Source: Actinomycetota bacterium
GTDB taxonomy: Bacteria; Actinomycetota; UBA4738; CALAEC01
Reading direction: 5' to 3'
Length of the DNA stretch: 64,000 nt
Assembly (NCBI GenBank): GCA_035642095.1
Contig: DASQTB010000048.1
Coordinates: 2,496-66,495, forward strand
Positions 20,462 to 60,757 of this stretch are shown here, one piece after another (position 1 is the first letter of the stretch; each line of letters begins with the position of its first letter). A program made the position numbers and the translations under genes. The notes beneath the pieces are model-generated. The model had not been told where the DNA came from, searched no databases, and saw only the letters and a program-made list of their open reading frames with translations.

Positions 20462-20862
20462 GCACCCGGGAAGAGGTGGAGAGGCTCGAGGCAGCGGCCC
20501 GAGAGGCTCGGGACCGGGCCTACGCCCCCTACAGCGGCTTCCAGGTGGGGGCGGCCCTCCTGACCGACGACGGCCGAATCTTCACCGGAGCCAACGTGGA
20601 GAACGCCTCGTACGGCCTGTCGATGTGCGCCGAGCGGACCGCCGTGTTCCACGCCGTCGCGGAGGGTGTCCGGGGCCTCCGGGCCGTGGCCGTGTCCGCC
20701 TCCAACGACGAGCCGACGTGGCCCTGCGGCGGATGCCGCCAGGTGCTGCACGAGTTCGGGCCGGACATGGTGGTGATCTCCGAGGGCCGGGGCGGTCGCC
20801 GGGAGGAGCGCAGGCTGGCCGAGCTGCTTCCGCTGGCCTTCGGACCGGCCGACCTGGAGTGA
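20458..20862 (+). CDS. cdd: cytidine deaminase
   Basis: Zinc-ligand motifs CAERTAVFHA and PCGGCRQVL. 134 aa. Start overlaps the upstream stop. Confidence 0.85.
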   Translation: MSTREEVERLEAAAREARDRAYAPYSGFQVGAALLTDDGRIFTGANVENASYGLSMCAERTAVFHAVAEGVRGLRAVAVSASNDEPTWPCGGCRQVLHEFGPDMVVISEGRGGRREERRLAELLPLAFGPADLE

Positions 20863-20901
20863 GCGGCTTCCGGGGCTGTCTCGCCTCGGGTACGGAGGTT
20901 C

Positions 20902-21336
20902 CTACTCGACGACGATCGTTCCGACCATGCCGGCGTCCTCGTGGAACCGGCAGAAGAACTTGTAGGTGCCGGCGCCCACCTCATCACCGACTTCGTCGGT
21001 CTCCTCGTCCTCCCCGGGCTCCACATCGAGGCTCAGATCGGTTCCCTGGATGGTGAAGTTGTGGTCCTGATTGCCGGCGTTGGTCAGGGCGACACCCTGC
21101 TCGCTCGACACGGCGATGCACGGCGGCTCGAAGAAGTTGTCCATCATCGTCACCGGAGCGGGCGCTCCCTCCGGCGCGGAGACCTCGGCGCAGGTCTCGT
21201 CGATGTCCTCCTGGAAACCGGCGGTGGCGGTCGGCGCCGCTTCCGGTTCGTCGTCGCCGACCTCGGGCAGATCGTTACAAGCGACCAGTGCCACTGTCGC
21301 CACGAAGACCGACAGGGCCGCCGTTCGCCTGGTCAC
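20902..21336 (-). CDS. cupredoxin (type-1 blue copper) lipoprotein
   Basis: Lipobox LVAC. Cu ligands H(DHNFT)...C-x2-H-x4-M (FFCRFHEDAGM). Confidence 0.7.
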   Translation of the reverse strand: MTRRTAALSVFVATVALVACNDLPEVGDDEPEAAPTATAGFQEDIDETCAEVSAPEGAPAPVTMMDNFFEPPCIAVSSEQGVALTNAGNQDHNFTIQGTDLSLDVEPGEDEETDEVGDEVGAGTYKFFCRFHEDAGMVGTIVVE

Positions 21337-21377
21337 GGCGCGGACCGTACCCGTCGATCGGAACCGTCAAACCAAGC

Positions 21378-21842
21378 TCAGCCGGCCTCGGAGACGGTCA
21401 ACTCGCCGGTCATGCCCTGGCCGCGATGGTAGATGCAGTAGAAGGCATAGGTCCCCGGAGGAACCGCGCCGCCGATCGCTTCGGTCCGGGCCACCCCGCC
21501 GGGCGGGACGTCGAAGCCGACGGAGGAATCCTCGACGGTGAGGTTGTGGAGGTTGGCCCCGGTGTTCCGGACCACCAGGCCCTGGCCGCCCAGGACGATC
21601 AGGCAGGTGGGATCGAAGGAGAAGTCGCTGGCCGAGATCCGGACCTCCACCCTGCCGGTCAGGGTCGCGTCGGTGCAGGCCGGGCTGGAGGTCGGGGTCG
21701 GCGCGGGGACGGGGGAGGGGCTGGCCGTCGGAACCGCCGTCGGCGATGGAGTGGCCGGCGGGGCGGTCTCGGGTTCCGCATCGCACGCCGTCAGCACGAG
21801 CAGGGCGGCGAACACCAACCGCAGGGACATCCATGCCAGCAT
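21378..21842 (-). CDS. cupredoxin (type-1 blue copper) lipoprotein with Pro/Ser/Thr-rich linker
   Basis: Lipobox LTAC. Cu ligands LHNLT...FYCIYHRGQGM. Sits in tandem with 20902..21336. Confidence 0.7.
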   Translation of the reverse strand: MLAWMSLRLVFAALLVLTACDAEPETAPPATPSPTAVPTASPSPVPAPTPTSSPACTDATLTGRVEVRISASDFSFDPTCLIVLGGQGLVVRNTGANLHNLTVEDSSVGFDVPPGGVARTEAIGGAVPPGTYAFYCIYHRGQGMTGELTVSEAG

Positions 21843-21874: not shown

Positions 21875-22285
21875 ATGAACGCCCGACGGGCGATGGTCAC
21901 CGGTCTCAGCGTTCTGTGGATGGCGGCGTGCGCTGATGGCGGCCCGGCGGGAGACGGTCCCTCACCGTCGACGCTTCGGCAGGTCCTGGCGAACCGGCGG
22001 GCGTTCGACGACCGCACCGTGAGCGTTCGAACAGCCTACTTCTCCTCGTTCGAGGTCAGCGTGCTGACCACGGGCTTCGCCGAGTCTCACCCTCCCCAGC
22101 CGGTCGAGCCGGTGGTGTGGGTCGATGCCGCGCCGCCGGATCGGTGTATGGATCGGACAAGGGACGCCGCCTGGGCCCAGTCCGTGGTCGCCTCCGGGCG
22201 GTTCCGGTTCGATCCCGACTCCGGCTTCGGTCACCTCGGCGCCTACGACATGGCGCTGGAGGACGCCACGTTGAGCTGCGCCTGA
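21875..22285 (+). CDS. hypothetical lipoprotein
   Basis: Signal peptide with lipobox (MVTGLSVLWMAAC). No recognisable domain. The start is uncertain. Confidence 0.4.
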   Translation: MNARRAMVTGLSVLWMAACADGGPAGDGPSPSTLRQVLANRRAFDDRTVSVRTAYFSSFEVSVLTTGFAESHPPQPVEPVVWVDAAPPDRCMDRTRDAAWAQSVVASGRFRFDPDSGFGHLGAYDMALEDATLSCA

Positions 22286-30319: not shown

Positions 30320-31426
30320 ATGGTCCGCCTCCGCTGGGAGCAGGTACGGCGGTGGCGTGTGGCTCGGCATCACCTCGACCGGCGCGCGCCGAAGGGGCGG
30401 CTGGTGGAGGTGGTCAGCGAGGTGTGCGGCCTCCAGGGCCAGGCGCAGTCCGCCGCGGAACTCCAGCTGTGGGCCCGAGTCGAGGGGGTCACGGCGGAGA
30501 ACGTTCGCCAGGCGCTGTGGGAACGGCGGATCCTCATCCGGACGTGGGCCCAGCGGGGCACGCTTCACCTCCATGCCGCCGCCGACTGGCCGGTCTACGC
30601 CGCCGCCCTGGGAACCCACGACCGCTGGTGGAAGGGGGCGTGGCTCCGGATGATCGGCATGAGCGCCGAGGAGCTCCGCCGGACCCTGGACGCGATCCGG
30701 GACTCGCTCGGCGCCCGGCCCCTCACCCGCGAGCAGCTCGCCGACAAGGTCGCCGCCCGCGGCGGGTCCGGGTCCCGGGAGCGGATGCTGTCCGGCTGGG
30801 GAGAGATGCTCAAGCCGGCGTCGTTCGAGGGAGCGCTGATCTCCGGACCGGCGAAGGGACGGAGCGTGACGTTCGTCCGTCCGGACGGTGGCTGAAGGGC
30901 TGGAACCCGGTGGACGGCGAGGAGGCCATGCGCGAGGTGCTCCGGCGGTATCTGGCCGCCTACGGACCGTCGACCCGAGAGGAGTTCGCCGCGTGGTGGG
31001 GCACCCAGCCCGCCCCCGCCGGACGGGTCCTGGCCTCGATGCCGGACGGGGGGCTGGAACAGGTCCACGTGGCCGGACGACGTGGGCCCGGTCGGCCGCC
31101 GTCCCGGCGATGAGAGCGAAGCCCGGAAGGAGCCCGGTCGTGCTGCTCCCGGCGTTCGACGTCTACACGGTCGGCTTCCGGCACCGGGAGCAGCTCGTCG
31201 AGGGGCGACACGGCAAGCGGGTGTTCCGCCAGGCGGGATGGATCTCCCCGTGGTGCTGATCGACGGTCGGGCCGCCGGGGTGTGGTCCCACGAGCGGAAC
31301 GGCGGGACCATCGAGGTGACCGTCGAGATGCTCGGGCGGCCGACGGCCGCCCAGAAGAAGGCGATCGCCGGGGAGGCGGATCGGTTGGGCGCATTCCTCG
31401 AGGGGCCGGTTCGGGTGTCGATGTAG
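30320..31426 (+). pseudogene. winged-helix DNA glycosylase YcaQ-family (DUF1006) gene disrupted by three -1 frameshifts
   Basis: The homologous reading passes through frame 2 (30320..30895), frame 1 (to ~31090), frame 0 (SPVVLLPAFDVYTVGFRHREQL, to ~31258) and frame 2 (PVVLIDGRAAGVWSHERNGGTIEV, to 31426). Confidence 0.6.
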
Positions 31427-54648: not shown

Positions 54649-55401
54649 TCAGCCGACCCGGACCGTCCCTCGCATCGAGGGGTGGATGGCGCAGAAGTAC
54701 GCCACGGAGCCGGGCCGCTCGAACGTGGTCGCGAACGTTCCGTCTGGCTCGATCGGTCCCGAGTCGAACTCCCCGTCCTCGGCGGTGACGGTGTGGCCCT
54801 CGGGGTCGCCGTTGGTCCAGGTGACCTCGGTCCCCGGGGGGACCTCGAGGGTCGTCGGCTGGAAGGCGAACCCCTGGACGGCCACGGCGGCCCCGCCGGG
54901 GGCCGCGGGTTCCCGACGGACCCTCGGCGCGTCCGGTCGGACCTCCAGCAGGGCCTCCATGCCTAGGTCGTCGTGGTTCGCCACGAAGCACTCGACCTTG
55001 TACACGCCGAGGCCGAGATCGAGGTCGACTCGGATGGTCTCGCCCGGATCGAACGTCGGCTCCTCGATCTTGAACCCGTCGTCCCCGCCGCTCCCGGGGC
55101 CGCTGCTGTCCCCGTCGGACTCGAGCTCCATCTCGAAGCCGTGGACCAGCTTCCCGCCGTTCCGCACAACGAACGTGACCGGTCCCGGCCGGATGGCCGG
55201 CGCCTCCAGGGTCACCGCGTACTCACCGAACCCGACCTCGAAGCCGCCCCGGCGCGGATCGACCCGCCGAGGGCCTGAGGCGGATCCCGTCCCAGACTCG
55301 GCCGAGGTTCCGCCGCCGACCTCGACGGGACTCGCGGTCGGCTCCGAGCGACCGCAGGCCGCCGTGACGAGCGCCATCGCGGCCAGCGCCATACCGGCCA
55401 T
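54649..55401 (-). CDS. lipoprotein with two tandem cupredoxin (type-1 copper) domains
   Basis: Lipobox LVTAAC with a Gly/Ser-rich linker. Domain 1 has H...C-x4-H-x4-M (VECFVANHDDLGM). Domain 2 has EGHTV...YFCAIHPSM. Confidence 0.7.
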   Translation of the reverse strand: MAGMALAAMALVTAACGRSEPTASPVEVGGGTSAESGTGSASGPRRVDPRRGGFEVGFGEYAVTLEAPAIRPGPVTFVVRNGGKLVHGFEMELESDGDSSGPGSGGDDGFKIEEPTFDPGETIRVDLDLGLGVYKVECFVANHDDLGMEALLEVRPDAPRVRREPAAPGGAAVAVQGFAFQPTTLEVPPGTEVTWTNGDPEGHTVTAEDGEFDSGPIEPDGTFATTFERPGSVAYFCAIHPSMRGTVRVG

Positions 55402-55412
55402 CCGGCGTCCCG

Positions 55413-55760
55413 TCACTGGACGGTGACCGTCCCTTCCATGCCGCCGGCCCGGTGGTATTCGCAGAACATCGTGTACTCGCCGGGGTCGGCGTCCACGGTG
55501 ATCGAGGTGCTGTCGCCCGGATCGACGTCCTCGTCGACGTCGGTGCCCTCGATGGTGATGTTGTGCTCGGCCTGGCCATCGTTCGACACGTCCACCGTGT
55601 CTCCGGCGCTCACGGTCAGATCGACGGGCTGGAAGGCGTTGTCGACCATGCTCAGCCCCGTTCCTTCGCCACCGCCGTCTCCTCCTCCCTCGTCGCCGCC
55701 GCACGCGGCCAGGGTGAGCGCCGCAATCACGGCCAGGATGACCCTCACCACATTCCTCAT
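55413..55760 (-). CDS. cupredoxin (type-1 blue copper) lipoprotein
   Basis: Lipobox LAAC with a Gly-rich linker. Cu ligands EHNIT...FCEYHRAGGM. Its stop is 12 nt upstream of the 54649..55401 start, consistent with an operon. Confidence 0.7.
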   Translation of the reverse strand: MRNVVRVILAVIAALTLAACGGDEGGGDGGGEGTGLSMVDNAFQPVDLTVSAGDTVDVSNDGQAEHNITIEGTDVDEDVDPGDSTSITVDADPGEYTMFCEYHRAGGMEGTVTVQ

Positions 55761-59882: not shown

Positions 59883-60428
59883 TCAGGGCACGACCATCCC
59901 CACCGCCTCGGCGGCGGCCTGTACCGCGGGGTGGTCGGGGGTCAGCGTCTCGGGGTCTTCGACCACGGCCAGCTTCGGTGCGGCCCGGTCGGCGAACAGC
60001 GTCACGTTGATCCACGAGGCCTCCACCGTCGACCACCAGGCCAGGCCGTCGGCCCCTTCCTCGTAGATGCGGAGGGCGAGCGGCTGGGTGGTGTCGCGAT
60101 CCCGGGTGGCCACGGCGGAAGGGCGAACGGAGCGCTCCACGAGCTGGGCCGGCTCGTCGAGATCGACCAGGTCGCCCAGGGCGGCACTGTCGAAAGTGGC
60201 CAGGGCGACACGACCGCCTCCCGGACGCTCCAGGGGTCTGCCCCGGAGCAGGCGACCACGGAACCGGCGGATCGCTTCGGCCACCGCCGACTCCGGGGAC
60301 CGTGAGGTGTACAGGGCCGCGTAGGCGTGCGGGTTGTCGTGCCGCCCGCCGCCCTGGTAGGAACGGGACACCTCGAGGGGATCGGCGCCTTCCGGACGCC
60401 GGATGAACGCTCGGTACAGAAGGGTCAC
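59883..60428 (-). CDS. RES-domain toxin (MbcT/ParT-like)
   Basis: GTG overlaps the antitoxin stop (GTGA). RES-family pattern LLYRAF...GGRHDNP...ALYTSRSPESAVAE. It is the C-terminal 181 aa of artefactual minus ORF 59883..62888. Confidence 0.65.
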   Translation of the reverse strand: MTLLYRAFIRRPEGADPLEVSRSYQGGGRHDNPHAYAALYTSRSPESAVAEAIRRFRGRLLRGRPLERPGGGRVALATFDSAALGDLVDLDEPAQLVERSVRPSAVATRDRDTTQPLALRIYEEGADGLAWWSTVEASWINVTLFADRAAPKLAVVEDPETLTPDHPAVQAAAEAVGMVVP

Positions 60429-60757
60429 GCGTAGGAGCCGGCCTCTTCGGCATCGATGGCCGAGAGGACCTCGGTGATGCGCCCCCGGGCCACGAGGTCG
60501 ATCGGCCGGGAGTCCCTCAGGAAGGGGTTCATGCCCAGGAGCCAATCGACCGCGGTCTCCGGGTAGTAGACCTGGAGGAGCCGGGACAGCACGAACTCGA
60601 GCCCCTCCAGCTTGCGGCGGTTCTCGGGGTCCGGCTGCTCGGTGCGGAGCCACCGGCTGATCCGGGATCTGCTGACGCCCAGGGCCTCGGCCACCCGGGC
60701 CTGGCTTCCCAGATCGTGGGTGATCGCCTTCAGCTTCTCTCTGACCGGCACCGGCAC
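60425..60757 (-). CDS. Xre/MbcA/ParS-type antitoxin (HTH + DUF2384 toxin-binding domain)
   Basis: HTH ARVAEALGVSRSRISRW. C-terminal DUF2384 pattern (WLLGMNPFLRDSRPIDLV...). Confidence 0.7.
   Translation of the reverse strand: MPVPVREKLKAITHDLGSQARVAEALGVSRSRISRWLRTEQPDPENRRKLEGLEFVLSRLLQVYYPETAVDWLLGMNPFLRDSRPIDLVARGRITEVLSAIDAEEAGSYA

What the first reader, a model, noticed from the sequence alone, without database searches (positions are those of the whole stretch)
20902..21842. Tandem pair of small type-1 copper (cupredoxin) lipoproteins
Two adjacent minus-strand genes each encode a lipobox signal, a low-complexity Pro/Ser/Gly linker and a plastocyanin-like domain with the full H...C-x2-H-x4-M ligand set. 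A second paralogous pair lies at 54.6-55.8 kb, giving five blue-copper domains in 64 kb. None is next to an obvious redox partner such as nitrite reductase or oxidase subunits, so their electron-transfer role is open.
Basis: partly seen in the sequence, partly recalled or inferred. Interest (0 to 1): 0.5.

Follow-up and report, generated by a model that had tools for sequence, protein, structure and literature searches.

The report
Two tethered blue-copper electron-carrier genes
Two neighbouring genes of an uncultured soil actinobacterium encode small membrane-anchored blue-copper proteins that most likely carry single electrons outside the cell membrane; this is an ordinary, already auto-annotated kind of protein whose redox partner is still unknown.

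Summary
Window 20902-21336(-) (CupA, 144 aa) and 21378-21842(-) (CupB, 154 aa) are real genes, 41 nt apart on the same strand and 32% identical to each other. Each has a lipobox (LVAC / LTAC, Cys20), a low-confidence linker and a high-confidence cupredoxin domain. The His / Cys-x2-His-x4-Met set is invariant across homologues and aligns with the plastocyanin ligands.

The closest solved structure is the unpublished copper-bound Bacillus anthracis 'Cupredoxin_1' (4HCF). No curated named family (plastocyanin, halocyanin, amicyanin, EfeO, CopI) reaches its cut-off.

The B-then-A pair is conserved, at a fixed place in a housekeeping block (phoH-ybeY-corC-cdd | pair | deoC), in at least nine related loci from uncultured Actinomycetota. 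No oxidase or reductase lies in the window. Distant relatives (29-36% identity) in Chloroflexota sit directly upstream of nosZ-nosL-nosD, beside a haem-copper oxidase subunit III, or 2 kb from a multicopper oxidase.

Best reading: lipid-tethered type 1 copper one-electron carriers. CupA and CupB probably serve different partners, since their net charges are about -28 and -8. These are new members of a known kind, and interest is low to moderate.

The parts
21378..21842 (-). cupB: 154-aa lipoprotein cupredoxin. Signal peptide residues 1-19, lipobox Cys20, Pro/Ser/Thr/Ala linker about residues 21-55, type 1 copper domain about residues 56-152. Ligands H99, C136, H139, M144. Extra Cys pair C56/C79.
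   Evidence: ORF and GC3 0.88. Pfam Copper-bind 25.3 bits (cut-off 21.2) and Cupredoxin_1 26.4 bits (cut-off 27). Ligands invariant in 25-27 homologues. AlphaFold2 pLDDT above 92 for residues 62-150 and below 55 for the linker. Foldseek top hit 4HCF, TMt 0.82-0.88.
20902..21336 (-). cupA: 144-aa lipoprotein cupredoxin with a GTG start. Signal peptide residues 1-19, lipobox Cys20, acidic linker about residues 21-47, conserved N-terminal extension plus type 1 copper domain about residues 48-144. Ligands H92, C129, H132, M137. Extra Cys pair C49/C73. Mature protein has 30 Asp+Glu against 2 Lys+Arg.
   Evidence: ORF and GC3 0.86. Pfam Cupredoxin_1 36.3 bits and Copper-bind 26.0 bits. Invariant C20, H92, C129, H132, M137 in 32 homologues. 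AlphaFold2 pLDDT 93-98 for residues 60-144. Foldseek and phmmer top hit 4HCF. Charge count.
21337..21377 (-). 41-nt spacer between the cupB stop and the cupA start. The two genes are on the same strand and are probably co-transcribed.
   Evidence: Sequence. No terminator-like site in the spacer. The same B-then-A order is found in 9 related loci. Co-transcription is inferred, not shown.
21875..22285 (+). Divergent neighbour 'lipo136': a 136-aa predicted lipoprotein (lipobox MAAC, Cys19) of unknown family, starting 32 nt from the cupB start. It may or may not be functionally linked to the pair.
   Evidence: Called gene. No Pfam, NCBIfam or PDB sequence hit. Homologues of 41-51% identity lie next to the cupredoxin gene(s) in L010, L016, L017, L019 and L020, but are absent in L011, L014 and L015.
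55413..55760 (-). Third cupredoxin lipoprotein: 115 aa, lipobox LAAC, Gly/Asp/Glu linker, ligands H...C-x2-H-x4-M. A paralogue of cupA and cupB (37-39% identity over the domain).
   Evidence: Pfam Cupredoxin_1 56.4 bits and Copper-bind 42.7 bits. tblastn against cupA and cupB. NCBIfam plastocyanin 53 bits, below the cut-off of 87.85.
54649..55401 (-). Two-domain cupredoxin lipoprotein of 250 aa, 11 nt downstream of the 115-aa gene. The C-terminal domain has H...C-x2-H-x2-M (amicyanin/halocyanin-like spacing). The N-terminal domain has H...C-x4-H-x4-M and weakly resembles the type 1 copper domain of two-domain laccases.
   Evidence: Gene call and Pfam hit on the C-terminal domain. The N-terminal domain matches laccases only at E about 0.02 and has no Pfam hit. 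NCBIfam halocyanin 41.5 bits and amicyanin 29.1 bits, both below cut-off.

Best explanation
cupB and cupA are a co-oriented, probably co-transcribed pair of paralogous genes in an uncultured soil Actinomycetota genome.

Proposed mechanism:
- Each product is exported and lipid-modified on Cys20. It is then held on the outer face of the cytoplasmic membrane by a flexible linker of about 30-40 residues.
- The globular part is an 85-95-residue cupredoxin that binds one copper through His / Cys / His / Met, a type 1 'blue' site with plastocyanin loop spacing.
- A conserved extra cysteine pair probably forms a disulfide that pins the N-terminal extension to strand 2.
- The proteins act as tethered one-electron shuttles between a membrane quinol-oxidising complex and terminal copper enzymes (haem-copper oxidase, nitrous-oxide reductase, or nitrite reductase / multicopper oxidase).
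- The two paralogues differ strongly in surface charge (CupA about -28, with a conserved acidic loop VEPGEDEETDEVGDE; CupB about -8). They probably dock to different partners, or act in series.

Shown here: the genes, the fold, the ligand set and its conservation, the lipobox, the conserved synteny, and the coupled presence of the Cys pair.
Inferred: copper binding, lipidation, the disulfide, co-transcription, the electron-carrier role and the identity of the partners.
For: - Real genes: GC3 0.86 and 0.88. There are 114 and 42 homologues, and other pipelines call them 'cupredoxin domain-containing protein' or 'plastocyanin'.
- Fold and ligands: Pfam hits. Alignment to the plastocyanin ligands (His37/Cys84/His87/Met92, established knowledge) and to 4HCF. 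Ligands invariant in the alignments. 148 of 156 homologues keep C-x2-H-x4-M. Confident AlphaFold2 domains whose best structural match is the copper-bound 4HCF.
- Tethering: Cys20 is invariant in the CupA alignment and at least 90% conserved in the CupB alignment. A lipobox is found in 121 of 156 homologues, and at least some of the remainder are N-terminally truncated fragments. The linkers have low pLDDT.
- No copper-trafficking signature: each mature protein has only two His, both of them ligands, and 1-3 Met.
- Cys pair: both present in 142 of 149 homologues, both absent in 3. The only 4 'one present' cases are N-terminally truncated fragments.
- Selection: the pair is kept in order and position in L010, L011, L013-L018 and L021, while LepA and PhoH in the same loci are 81-87% identical.
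- Electron-donor role by analogy: distant relatives lie directly upstream of nosZ-nosL-...-nosD (L025, L027), after a haem-copper oxidase subunit III-like ORF (L029), and 2 kb from a Tat-signal multicopper oxidase (L022). This is the position held by lipoprotein cytochrome c NosC in Gram-positive nos clusters (PMC3475470).
- Precedent: lipid-anchored cupredoxins are an established kind, for example lipocyanin of Streptomyces coelicolor (Worrall et al. 2006, cited in PMC3603459 and PMC4059628) and Laz of Neisseria (PMC6277709).
Against: - No redox partner lies in the 64-kb window, in the extra flank of the 73-kb contig, or beside any Actinomycetota homologue examined.
- The relatives with informative neighbours are only 29-36% identical and belong to another phylum. 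The two nos-linked ones whose sequences were read (L027, and nos-unlinked L024) have a shorter C-x2-H-x3-M loop. Transferring their role to this pair is therefore weak.
- By established knowledge, canonical Actinomycetota pass electrons inside a bcc-aa3 supercomplex through a fused dihaem cytochrome c and need no mobile carrier. A carrier's place in this organism's chain is therefore not obvious.
- A full His/Cys/His/Met set also occurs in cupredoxins that work in copper resistance, such as CopI (from my own recall; not checked in a paper here).
- Copper-site geometry could not be measured, because the tools do not expose model coordinates.
Confidence: 0.7

Rival explanations
1. Copper homeostasis proteins. 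The pair would bind, buffer or detoxify extracytoplasmic copper, as the periplasmic cupredoxin-like CopI does, or hand copper to other cuproenzymes, rather than carry electrons.
For: The cupredoxin fold and a Cys/His/Met site are compatible with this role. CupB gives a faint NCBIfam match to CopI (E = 0.2, 11.4 bits against a cut-off of 280). No redox partner is nearby. Four cupredoxin genes in 64 kb could reflect copper handling.
Against: There are no His- or Met-rich tracts: only two His per mature protein, both type 1 ligands. No copA, copZ, csoR, copC, copD or multicopper oxidase gene lies in the window. The CopI match is far below its cut-off. The pair sits in a housekeeping block, not in a metal-resistance island.
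Confidence: 0.12
2. A dedicated three-lipoprotein module. CupB, CupA and the divergently transcribed lipoprotein lipo136 would work together in an undescribed extracytoplasmic redox or maturation task, with lipo136 as the partner or substrate.
For: lipo136 starts 32 nt from cupB on the opposite strand. Homologues of 41-51% identity lie next to the cupredoxin gene(s) in L010, L016, L017, L019 and L020. It has conserved motifs (FEVSVLT-GFAES-PPQP, GFGHLG) and two conserved Cys, and no known family.
Against: The whole region is syntenic, so conserved adjacency carries little weight. lipo136 is absent from L011, L014 and L015, which keep the pair. It has only one conserved His and no recognisable cofactor motif.
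Confidence: 0.08
3. Iron-uptake or other non-electron-transfer cupredoxin-like domains, of the EfeO 'Cup' type.
For: Pfam Cupredoxin_1 also covers the N-terminal domain of EfeO. The 115-aa paralogue gives a weak NCBIfam EfeO hit (27 bits against a cut-off of 270).
Against: There is no peptidase-M75 domain, and no efeU or efeB gene in the window. CupA and CupB themselves give no EfeO hit at E up to 1. They keep the complete type 1 ligand set.
Confidence: 0.03
4. Chance ORFs or decaying pseudogenes in GC-rich DNA.
For: High-GC DNA produces many long spurious ORFs: 47 ORFs of at least 50 aa overlap 18-25 kb.
Against: Codon-position GC is typical of real genes. The pair is conserved down to 45-55% identity with invariant ligands. 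The structure models are confident.
Confidence: 0.01

Closest known systems
Bacillus anthracis 'Cupredoxin_1' domain protein (PDB 4HCF copper-bound, 4HCG zinc-bound, 4HCI; structural-genomics entries)
   Same: It is the best sequence hit in the PDB for CupA (E = 5.6e-9) and the best structural hit for both proteins (Foldseek E about 3e-9 to 4e-9, TMt 0.81-0.88). It has the same H...C-x2-H-x4-M spacing and the same compact domain of about 90 residues.
   Different: It is only 22-30% identical and comes from Firmicutes. No paper in the searchable library mentions the entry, so it supplies a fold and a metal site but no function or partner. Its aligned stretch lacks the strand-2 cysteine of the conserved Cys pair.
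Plastocyanin (NCBIfam TIGR02656; Pfam PF00127)
   Same: It has the same ligand order and loop length (C-x2-H-x4-M), the His-Asn motif at the first ligand and the GMxG after the Met. CupA also carries a strongly acidic patch.
   Different: The scores of 31 and 29 bits are far below the equivalog cut-off of 87.85. Plastocyanin is a soluble lumenal protein working between cytochrome f and photosystem I, which do not exist in Actinomycetota (established knowledge). It has no lipobox or linker.
Lipid-anchored cupredoxins: lipocyanin (Streptomyces coelicolor), halocyanins (haloarchaea), auracyanin A (Chloroflexus), Laz (Neisseria)
   Same: The architecture is the same: lipoprotein signal, flexible linker, then a single type 1 copper domain tethered to the membrane surface. 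These are used as, or proposed to be, electron carriers (PMC3603459 ref 9; PMC4059628; PMC6277709; PMC8301774).
   Different: This pair does not belong to those sequence families: halocyanin TIGR03102 scores 22 and 18 bits against a cut-off of 93.8. From my own knowledge, auracyanin and Laz are azurin-like with longer C-to-H loops. I could not compare with the lipocyanin sequence, which was not available to the tools.
Cupredoxin lipoproteins encoded directly upstream of nosZ in Chloroflexota MAGs (L025, L027)
   Same: They are of the Pfam Cupredoxin_1 type and share the first-strand motif T-M-x-D-N-F-F-E-P. L027 has a lipobox. They were retrieved with the CupA profile.
   Different: They are 35-36% identical to CupA. 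In L027, the one whose sequence was read, the loop is one residue shorter (C-x2-H-x3-M) and the conserved Cys pair is absent. They are embedded in a nos cluster, whereas the Actinomycetota pair sits among housekeeping genes.
Poly-cupredoxin lipoproteins (3-9 tandem domains; for example P0157 of 669 aa and P0158 of 1166 aa)
   Same: They carry the same broad domain family and show the same tendency to duplicate in tandem. P0157, P0158 and P0204 have a lipobox and Ala/Pro linkers between domains.
   Different: The domains are fused in one polypeptide. The loops are mostly C-x4-H-x4-M (P0158 carries other variants), and each domain scores far lower than the true orthologues. Their taxonomy and function are unknown.

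Membership tests
Cupredoxin superfamily, type 1 (blue) copper proteins | Greek-key beta-sandwich of 7-8 strands | tested here: met
   The AlphaFold2 models show 8 strands (CupA) and 9 strands (CupB) with pLDDT above 92. Foldseek probability is 1.00 to cupredoxins, with TMt up to 0.88.
Cupredoxin superfamily, type 1 (blue) copper proteins | One upstream His, plus Cys, His and Met in the C-terminal loop, all conserved | tested here: met
   CupA has H92/C129/H132/M137 and CupB has H99/C136/H139/M144. These are invariant in alignments A1-A3 and align with the plastocyanin and 4HCF ligand columns.
Cupredoxin superfamily, type 1 (blue) copper proteins | Binds one copper with blue spectroscopy (about 600-nm band, small parallel hyperfine EPR coupling) | not testable with these tools
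   This needs purified protein. Model coordinates are not exposed, so even the predicted ligand geometry could not be measured.
Pfam PF13473 Cupredoxin_1 / PF00127 Copper-bind | Score at or above the Pfam gathering threshold | tested here: met
   CupA: PF13473 36.3 bits (cut-off 27) and PF00127 26.0 bits (cut-off 21.2). CupB: PF00127 25.3 bits (cut-off 21.2) and PF13473 26.4 bits, just below 27.
Bacterial lipoproteins | N-terminal signal peptide ending in a lipobox [LVI][ASTVI][GAS]C | tested here: met
   LVAC (CupA) and LTAC (CupB), with Cys at position 20. That Cys is invariant in the CupA alignment and at least 90% conserved in the CupB alignment, and 121 of 156 homologues have a lipobox. 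Actual lipidation was not tested.
Plastocyanin (NCBIfam TIGR02656, equivalog) | Score at or above the curated cut-off of 87.85 bits | tested here: not met
   31.3 bits (CupA) and 29.1 bits (CupB). Only the C-terminal ligand loop matches.
Halocyanin (NCBIfam TIGR03102) | Score at or above the curated cut-off of 93.8 bits | tested here: not met
   22.5 and 18.4 bits.
Azurin, pseudoazurin, amicyanin, rusticyanin, sulfocyanin, nitrosocyanin (NCBIfam equivalogs) | Any match at E up to 1 that reaches the cut-off | tested here: not met
   None of these models appears for CupA or CupB at E up to 1. Pseudoazurin appears only at E = 0.73 in the PDB search for CupB.
CopI-type copper-resistance cupredoxins (NCBIfam NF051440) | Score at or above the cut-off of 280 bits; His/Met-rich copper-binding regions | tested here: not met
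   CupB scores 11.4 bits (E = 0.2) and CupA gives no hit. Each mature protein has only 2 His and 1-3 Met.
CuA domains (cytochrome oxidase subunit II, NosZ) | Binuclear site with two Cys (C-x3-C) in the loop | tested here: not met
   There is a single Cys in the loop (C-x2-H-x4-M). The structural similarity to CuA domains is at fold level only.
EfeO (NCBIfam NF041757) | Cup domain fused to a peptidase-M75 domain; efeU/efeB neighbours | tested here: not met
   No M75 domain and no efeU or efeB gene. CupA and CupB give no EfeO hit.

The most novel reading that the evidence does not exclude
This uncultured soil Actinomycetota lineage may run the extracytoplasmic part of its respiratory chain largely on tethered copper proteins, as ammonia-oxidising archaea and haloarchaea do. 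The conserved CupB-CupA pair, fixed in the core housekeeping block, would be a constitutive two-step or two-partner relay. It would replace or supplement the fused dihaem cytochrome c of the canonical actinobacterial bcc-aa3 supercomplex.

The hints are the density of cupredoxins (4 genes and 4-5 domains in 64 kb, plus a possible third, 130-aa cupredoxin-like ORF beside the pair in L010, seen only as a weak tblastn match with no Pfam hit) and the retention of the pair across relatives whose LepA is only 81-84% identical.
Probability: 0.12. Interest if true: 0.6.

Novelty: new member of a known kind. Interest (0 to 1): 0.25.

Why it matters
Monoderm bacteria have no periplasm to retain soluble carriers, so they tether their electron carriers to the membrane. 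Lipid-anchored cytochromes c are well studied, but lipid-anchored cupredoxins are known from only a handful of characterised cases.

This pair defines a clade of about a hundred 50%-identity clusters at E <= 1e-30. That clade sits inside a very large and mostly unstudied Cupredoxin_1 family of about 18,600 clusters.

The clade is confined to uncultured soil Actinomycetota and is conserved in the core of the genome. If its partners were identified, they would show how these abundant soil bacteria wire quinol oxidation to oxygen, N2O or nitrite reduction, which bears on soil N2O budgets.

As it stands, the finding is a correct but routine annotation. It does not open a long-standing question.

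Tried and rejected
- Rfam (gathering thresholds) and tRNA scans of the whole window found nothing.
- The sigma-70 promoter scan of 20.4-22.4 kb found nothing. One of the two terminator-like hits lies inside cupA coding sequence and the other about 70 nt inside the start of the deoC ORF; both were ignored.
- lipo136 gave no hit in Pfam at E up to 10, in NCBIfam, or in PDB sequences.
- Neighbourhoods of intermediate homologues P0098, P0108 and P0151 hold no redox gene.
- No paper in the library mentions PDB 4HCF. The search for papers on cupredoxins in clade II nos clusters returned nothing specific about a donor cupredoxin.
- The ORF upstream of the L029 cupredoxin protein gave no Pfam hit as a whole. 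My ORF call is probably out of frame in its second half. Its first 97 residues match subunit III of haem-copper oxidases in the PDB at E = 2e-11.
It was redone without them.
- A GC-rich 6-bp palindrome (CGCCCG-T-CGGGCG) near the cupB / lipo136 starts lies inside lipo136 coding sequence. I judged it unremarkable in 70% GC DNA.
- A Tat signal for CupA (TRRT) was considered and rejected, because the RR is not conserved in orthologues.
- I ran no further search on taxonomy. Every source labels the relatives only 'Actinomycetota bacterium'.
Full report
**What is there.** The window is about 70% GC throughout. It matches a 73-kb contig of a soil-metagenome assembly (ENA ERZ27259297). Two minus-strand ORFs lie at the stated coordinates: 20902-21336 (144 aa, GTG start; called CupA here) and 21378-21842 (154 aa, ATG start; called CupB here). 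High-GC DNA throws up many spurious ORFs, so I checked codon-position GC. Both have third-position GC of 0.86-0.88 and second-position GC of 0.46-0.60, the pattern of real genes in this window. ENA, JGI and NCBI pipelines call exactly these genes and name them 'plastocyanin' or 'cupredoxin domain-containing protein [Actinomycetota bacterium]'. The genes are 41 nt apart on the same strand with no terminator-like site between them, so co-transcription is likely but not shown.

**Protein anatomy.** Both products start with a short signal peptide ending in a lipobox (LVAC in CupA, LTAC in CupB; Cys20 in each).
- CupB then has a Pro/Ser/Thr/Ala-rich linker.
- CupA has an acidic Ala/Pro/Asp/Glu linker followed by a conserved segment (ECAEVSAxEGAPAPVTMMDNFFEP).
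- Pfam places both in Cupredoxin_1 / Copper-bind.
- The ligand pattern is His...Cys-x2-His-x4-Met: H92/C129/H132/M137 in CupA and H99/C136/H139/M144 in CupB. I verified every codon on the DNA.
- In phmmer alignments these residues fall on the ligand columns of plastocyanins (His37/Cys84/His87/Met92, established knowledge) and of the B. anthracis Cupredoxin_1 structure, 4HCF.
- The two proteins are 32% identical, BLASTP E = 2e-23.

**Conservation.** A homology search found 114 relatives of CupA and 42 of CupB. Almost all come from soil metagenomes or MAGs labelled only 'Actinomycetota bacterium'.
- In alignments of diverse members the four ligands are invariant. The lipobox Cys is invariant for CupA and at least 90% conserved for CupB.
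- 148 of 156 homologues keep C-x2-H-x4-M.
- Two further cysteines are conserved: one just before the domain and one in strand 2 (F-[ED]-P-x-C). Both are present in 142 of 149 homologues and both are absent in 3. The only four 'one without the other' cases are N-terminally truncated fragments. That coupling is what a structural disulfide predicts; the disulfide itself is inferred.

**Structure.** AlphaFold2 with these alignments gives confident cupredoxin domains and low-confidence linkers: pLDDT 93-98 for CupA residues 60-144 and above 92 for CupB residues 62-150. Foldseek against the PDB ranks the copper-bound B. anthracis 'Cupredoxin_1' (4HCF/4HCG/4HCI) first for both (TMt 0.81-0.88, 22-30% identity). 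CuA domains and plastocyanins follow. No paper in the searchable library mentions 4HCF, so the nearest structure carries no functional information. Model coordinates are not exposed, so copper-site geometry could not be measured.

**Family membership.** None of the curated named cupredoxin families claims these proteins.
- Plastocyanin TIGR02656: 31 and 29 bits against a cut-off of 87.85.
- Halocyanin TIGR03102: 22 and 18 bits against 93.8.
- CopI NF051440: 11 bits against 280.
- Azurin, pseudoazurin, amicyanin, rusticyanin and nitrosocyanin models do not appear at all.

The same holds for the second cluster. A profile of the CupA alignment, searched against 1.84 billion cluster representatives, found 18,598 proteins at E <= 1e-3, 2,596 at <= 1e-10 and 101 at <= 1e-30. 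The broad domain family is therefore very large and the specific clade is modest. The highest total scores belong to poly-cupredoxin proteins with 3-9 tandem domains, several of them lipoproteins and mostly of the C-x4-H-x4-M type. This shows that tandem duplication is a habit of the family, both as separate genes and as fusions.

**Genomic context.** The pair is convergent with cdd. It sits inside a housekeeping block: holA, lepA, hrcA, dnaJ, rsmE, a HIT-family gene, phoH, ybeY, corC, cdd | cupA, cupB | lipo136, deoC, two aldehyde dehydrogenases, a PGPGW-domain gene, psiE, an S8 peptidase, recO, uppS. I annotated almost all remaining genes of the window. They comprise tRNA synthetases, comEA/comEC, regulators, sugar transport and catabolism, fumarase, PPDK and a RES toxin pair.

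The same B-then-A order, and where enough flank is held the same position, recurs in L010, L011, L013-L018 and L021. In those loci CupA is 55-67% and CupB 47-54% identical, while PhoH is 83-87% in all but L016 (51%) and LepA 81-84%. The pair is thus old and maintained, but it evolves faster than its neighbours. Single-copy relatives in other contexts (L012, P0108, P0151) also lack redox neighbours.

**A lead on function.** The genome scan also returned 29-36% identical relatives in other phyla. I called ORFs in those loci and checked them with Pfam and PDB searches.
- In L025 (Thermoflexaceae) and L027 (Dehalococcoidaceae), the match to CupA (in L027 a called 148-aa cupredoxin lipoprotein) lies directly upstream of nosZ, which is followed in L025 by nosL and in both by a nosD-like ORF (nosZ, nosL and L025 nosD confirmed by Pfam).
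- In L029 (Chloroflexia), a membrane protein with two such domains follows an ORF whose N-terminus matches haem-copper oxidase subunit III (E = 2e-11).
- In L022 (Caldilineaceae), a Tat-signal multicopper oxidase lies about 2 kb away.

In Gram-positive nos clusters the position before nosZ is occupied by a lipoprotein cytochrome c, NosC, thought to be the electron donor (PMC3475470). A cupredoxin lipoprotein in the same slot suggests the same job. This supports a general role of the wider family as an electron donor to terminal copper enzymes. The transfer to the Actinomycetota pair is an analogy across phyla, at low identity, and with a one-residue-shorter ligand loop in the relatives whose sequences were read.

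**Mechanism proposed.** The proteins are exported and lipidated at Cys20. A flexible tether holds them at the membrane surface. One type 1 copper per protein cycles between Cu(I) and Cu(II) and shuttles single electrons between a quinol-oxidising complex and one or more terminal enzymes encoded elsewhere in the genome. CupA is extremely acidic (30 Asp+Glu against 2 Lys+Arg in 125 mature residues) and carries a conserved acidic loop, VEPGEDEETDEVGDE. CupB is only mildly acidic (13 against 5). Electrostatic docking is how plastocyanin-type carriers recognise partners (established knowledge), so the paralogues probably serve different partners or act in series. Each mature protein has only two His, both ligands, and 1-3 Met. 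This argues against a CopI-like copper-trafficking role.

**Rivals.** I give copper homeostasis 0.12, a three-lipoprotein module with the unknown neighbour lipo136 0.08, an EfeO-like role 0.03 and spurious ORFs 0.01. The evidence for each is in the rival entries.

**Second cluster.** Gene 55413-55760(-) encodes a 115-aa lipoprotein with the best Pfam Cupredoxin_1 score in the window (56 bits) and C-x2-H-x4-M. Eleven nucleotides downstream, 54649-55401(-) encodes a 250-aa two-domain lipoprotein. Its C-terminal domain is firm (Copper-bind 40.5 bits; C-x2-H-x2-M). Its N-terminal domain has H...C-x4-H-x4-M but only a weak resemblance to the type 1 copper domain of two-domain laccases (E about 0.02) and no Pfam hit. 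'Five blue-copper domains' is therefore four firm plus one probable. This cluster lies between tag/fumC and a glyoxalase gene, again without a partner.

**Comparison with what is known, and novelty.** Lipid-anchored type 1 copper proteins are an established kind. Examples are lipocyanin of Streptomyces coelicolor (Worrall et al. 2006, cited in PMC3603459 and PMC4059628), Laz of Neisseria (PMC6277709), haloarchaeal halocyanins (PMC8301774) and auracyanin A (my own knowledge). The pair works like these but is not a member of their sequence families. It belongs to an uncharacterised clade of Pfam Cupredoxin_1 whose nearest structure has no published function. I rate it a new member of a known kind, already annotated generically by standard pipelines.

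**Verdict.** Interest is 0.25: a specialist would not be surprised, and no long-standing question becomes testable from this locus alone. The most novel reading still open is that this lineage relies on a copper-protein-based extracytoplasmic electron-transfer chain, with this conserved pair as a core relay. I give that a probability of about 0.12; it would be of moderate to high interest if true.

Noticed in passing
window 21875-22285 (+): A 136-aa predicted lipoprotein (lipobox MAAC) with no Pfam, NCBIfam or PDB sequence match. It is transcribed divergently from cupB with only 32 nt between the start codons, which suggests leaderless or overlapping promoters. Homologues of 41-51% identity with conserved motifs (FEVSVLT-GFAES-PPQP, GFGHLG, two Cys) lie beside the cupredoxin gene(s) in L010, L016, L017, L019 and L020.
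   Followed up: partly
window 54649-55401 (-): A two-domain cupredoxin lipoprotein. Its N-terminal domain keeps type 1-like ligands in a C-x4-H-x4-M loop and weakly resembles the type 1 copper domain of two-domain laccases, but the residues flanking its Cys are Glu and Phe (E-C-F) rather than the two His seen beside the aligned laccase Cys. It may be a laccase-derived electron-transfer domain fused to an amicyanin-like domain.
   Followed up: partly
proteins P0157, P0158, P0163, P0186, P0204: The profile search surfaced proteins with 2-9 tandem cupredoxin domains joined by Ala/Pro linkers, up to 1452 aa. Three of the six read (P0157, P0158, P0204) have a lipobox. Most domains have a full C-x4-H-x4-M set (P0158 carries other loop variants). 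These 'poly-cupredoxins' could act as extended electron conduits. Their taxonomy and context are unknown because the library holds no annotation.
   Followed up: no
L025 6001-11168; L027 5824-11018: In Chloroflexota MAGs a Cupredoxin_1-type match (in L027 a called 148-aa lipoprotein) lies directly upstream of nosZ, in the position held by lipoprotein cytochrome c NosC in Firmicutes. nosL (L025 only) and a nosD-like ORF follow; nosZ was confirmed by Pfam in both loci, nosL and nosD in L025. It is a candidate copper-only electron-donor arrangement for nitrous-oxide reductase.
   Followed up: partly
window 20862-20902, compared with L010 10448-11329 and L011 10674-11564: The GTPase gene era lies between cdd and cupA in related loci, but it is missing from this position and from the whole window. 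The only tblastn hit is a weak match to the LepA GTPase domain.
   Followed up: partly
window about 30329-31420 (+): The AlkZ-like (PF06224) gene is called as four fragments in two independent assemblies (L001, L002). It still aligns in one frame over 375 residues (51% identity) to the intact 373-aa gene of L011. It is probably a pseudogene interrupted by in-frame stops.
   Followed up: partly
L016 (JBKJVY010000056.1): A contig carrying the same lipo136-cupB-cupA block (41-55% identity) is deposited in a MAG labelled Thermoanaerobaculia (Acidobacteriota). This is probably a binning or labelling error rather than a transfer, although PhoH on that contig is only 51% identical.
   Followed up: no
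window about 59883-60757: A toxin-antitoxin pair, HTH (Xre-like) followed by a RES-domain protein, lies next to pyruvate phosphate dikinase (from the gene calls of L006).
   Followed up: no
L010 8663-9055 (+): In the 615-kb relative, a possible third cupredoxin-like ORF (130 aa, 33% identity to the 115-aa paralogue by tblastn at E = 2e-6, no Pfam hit on record) lies two genes upstream of the cupB-cupA pair. This hints at local expansion of the family.
   Followed up: no
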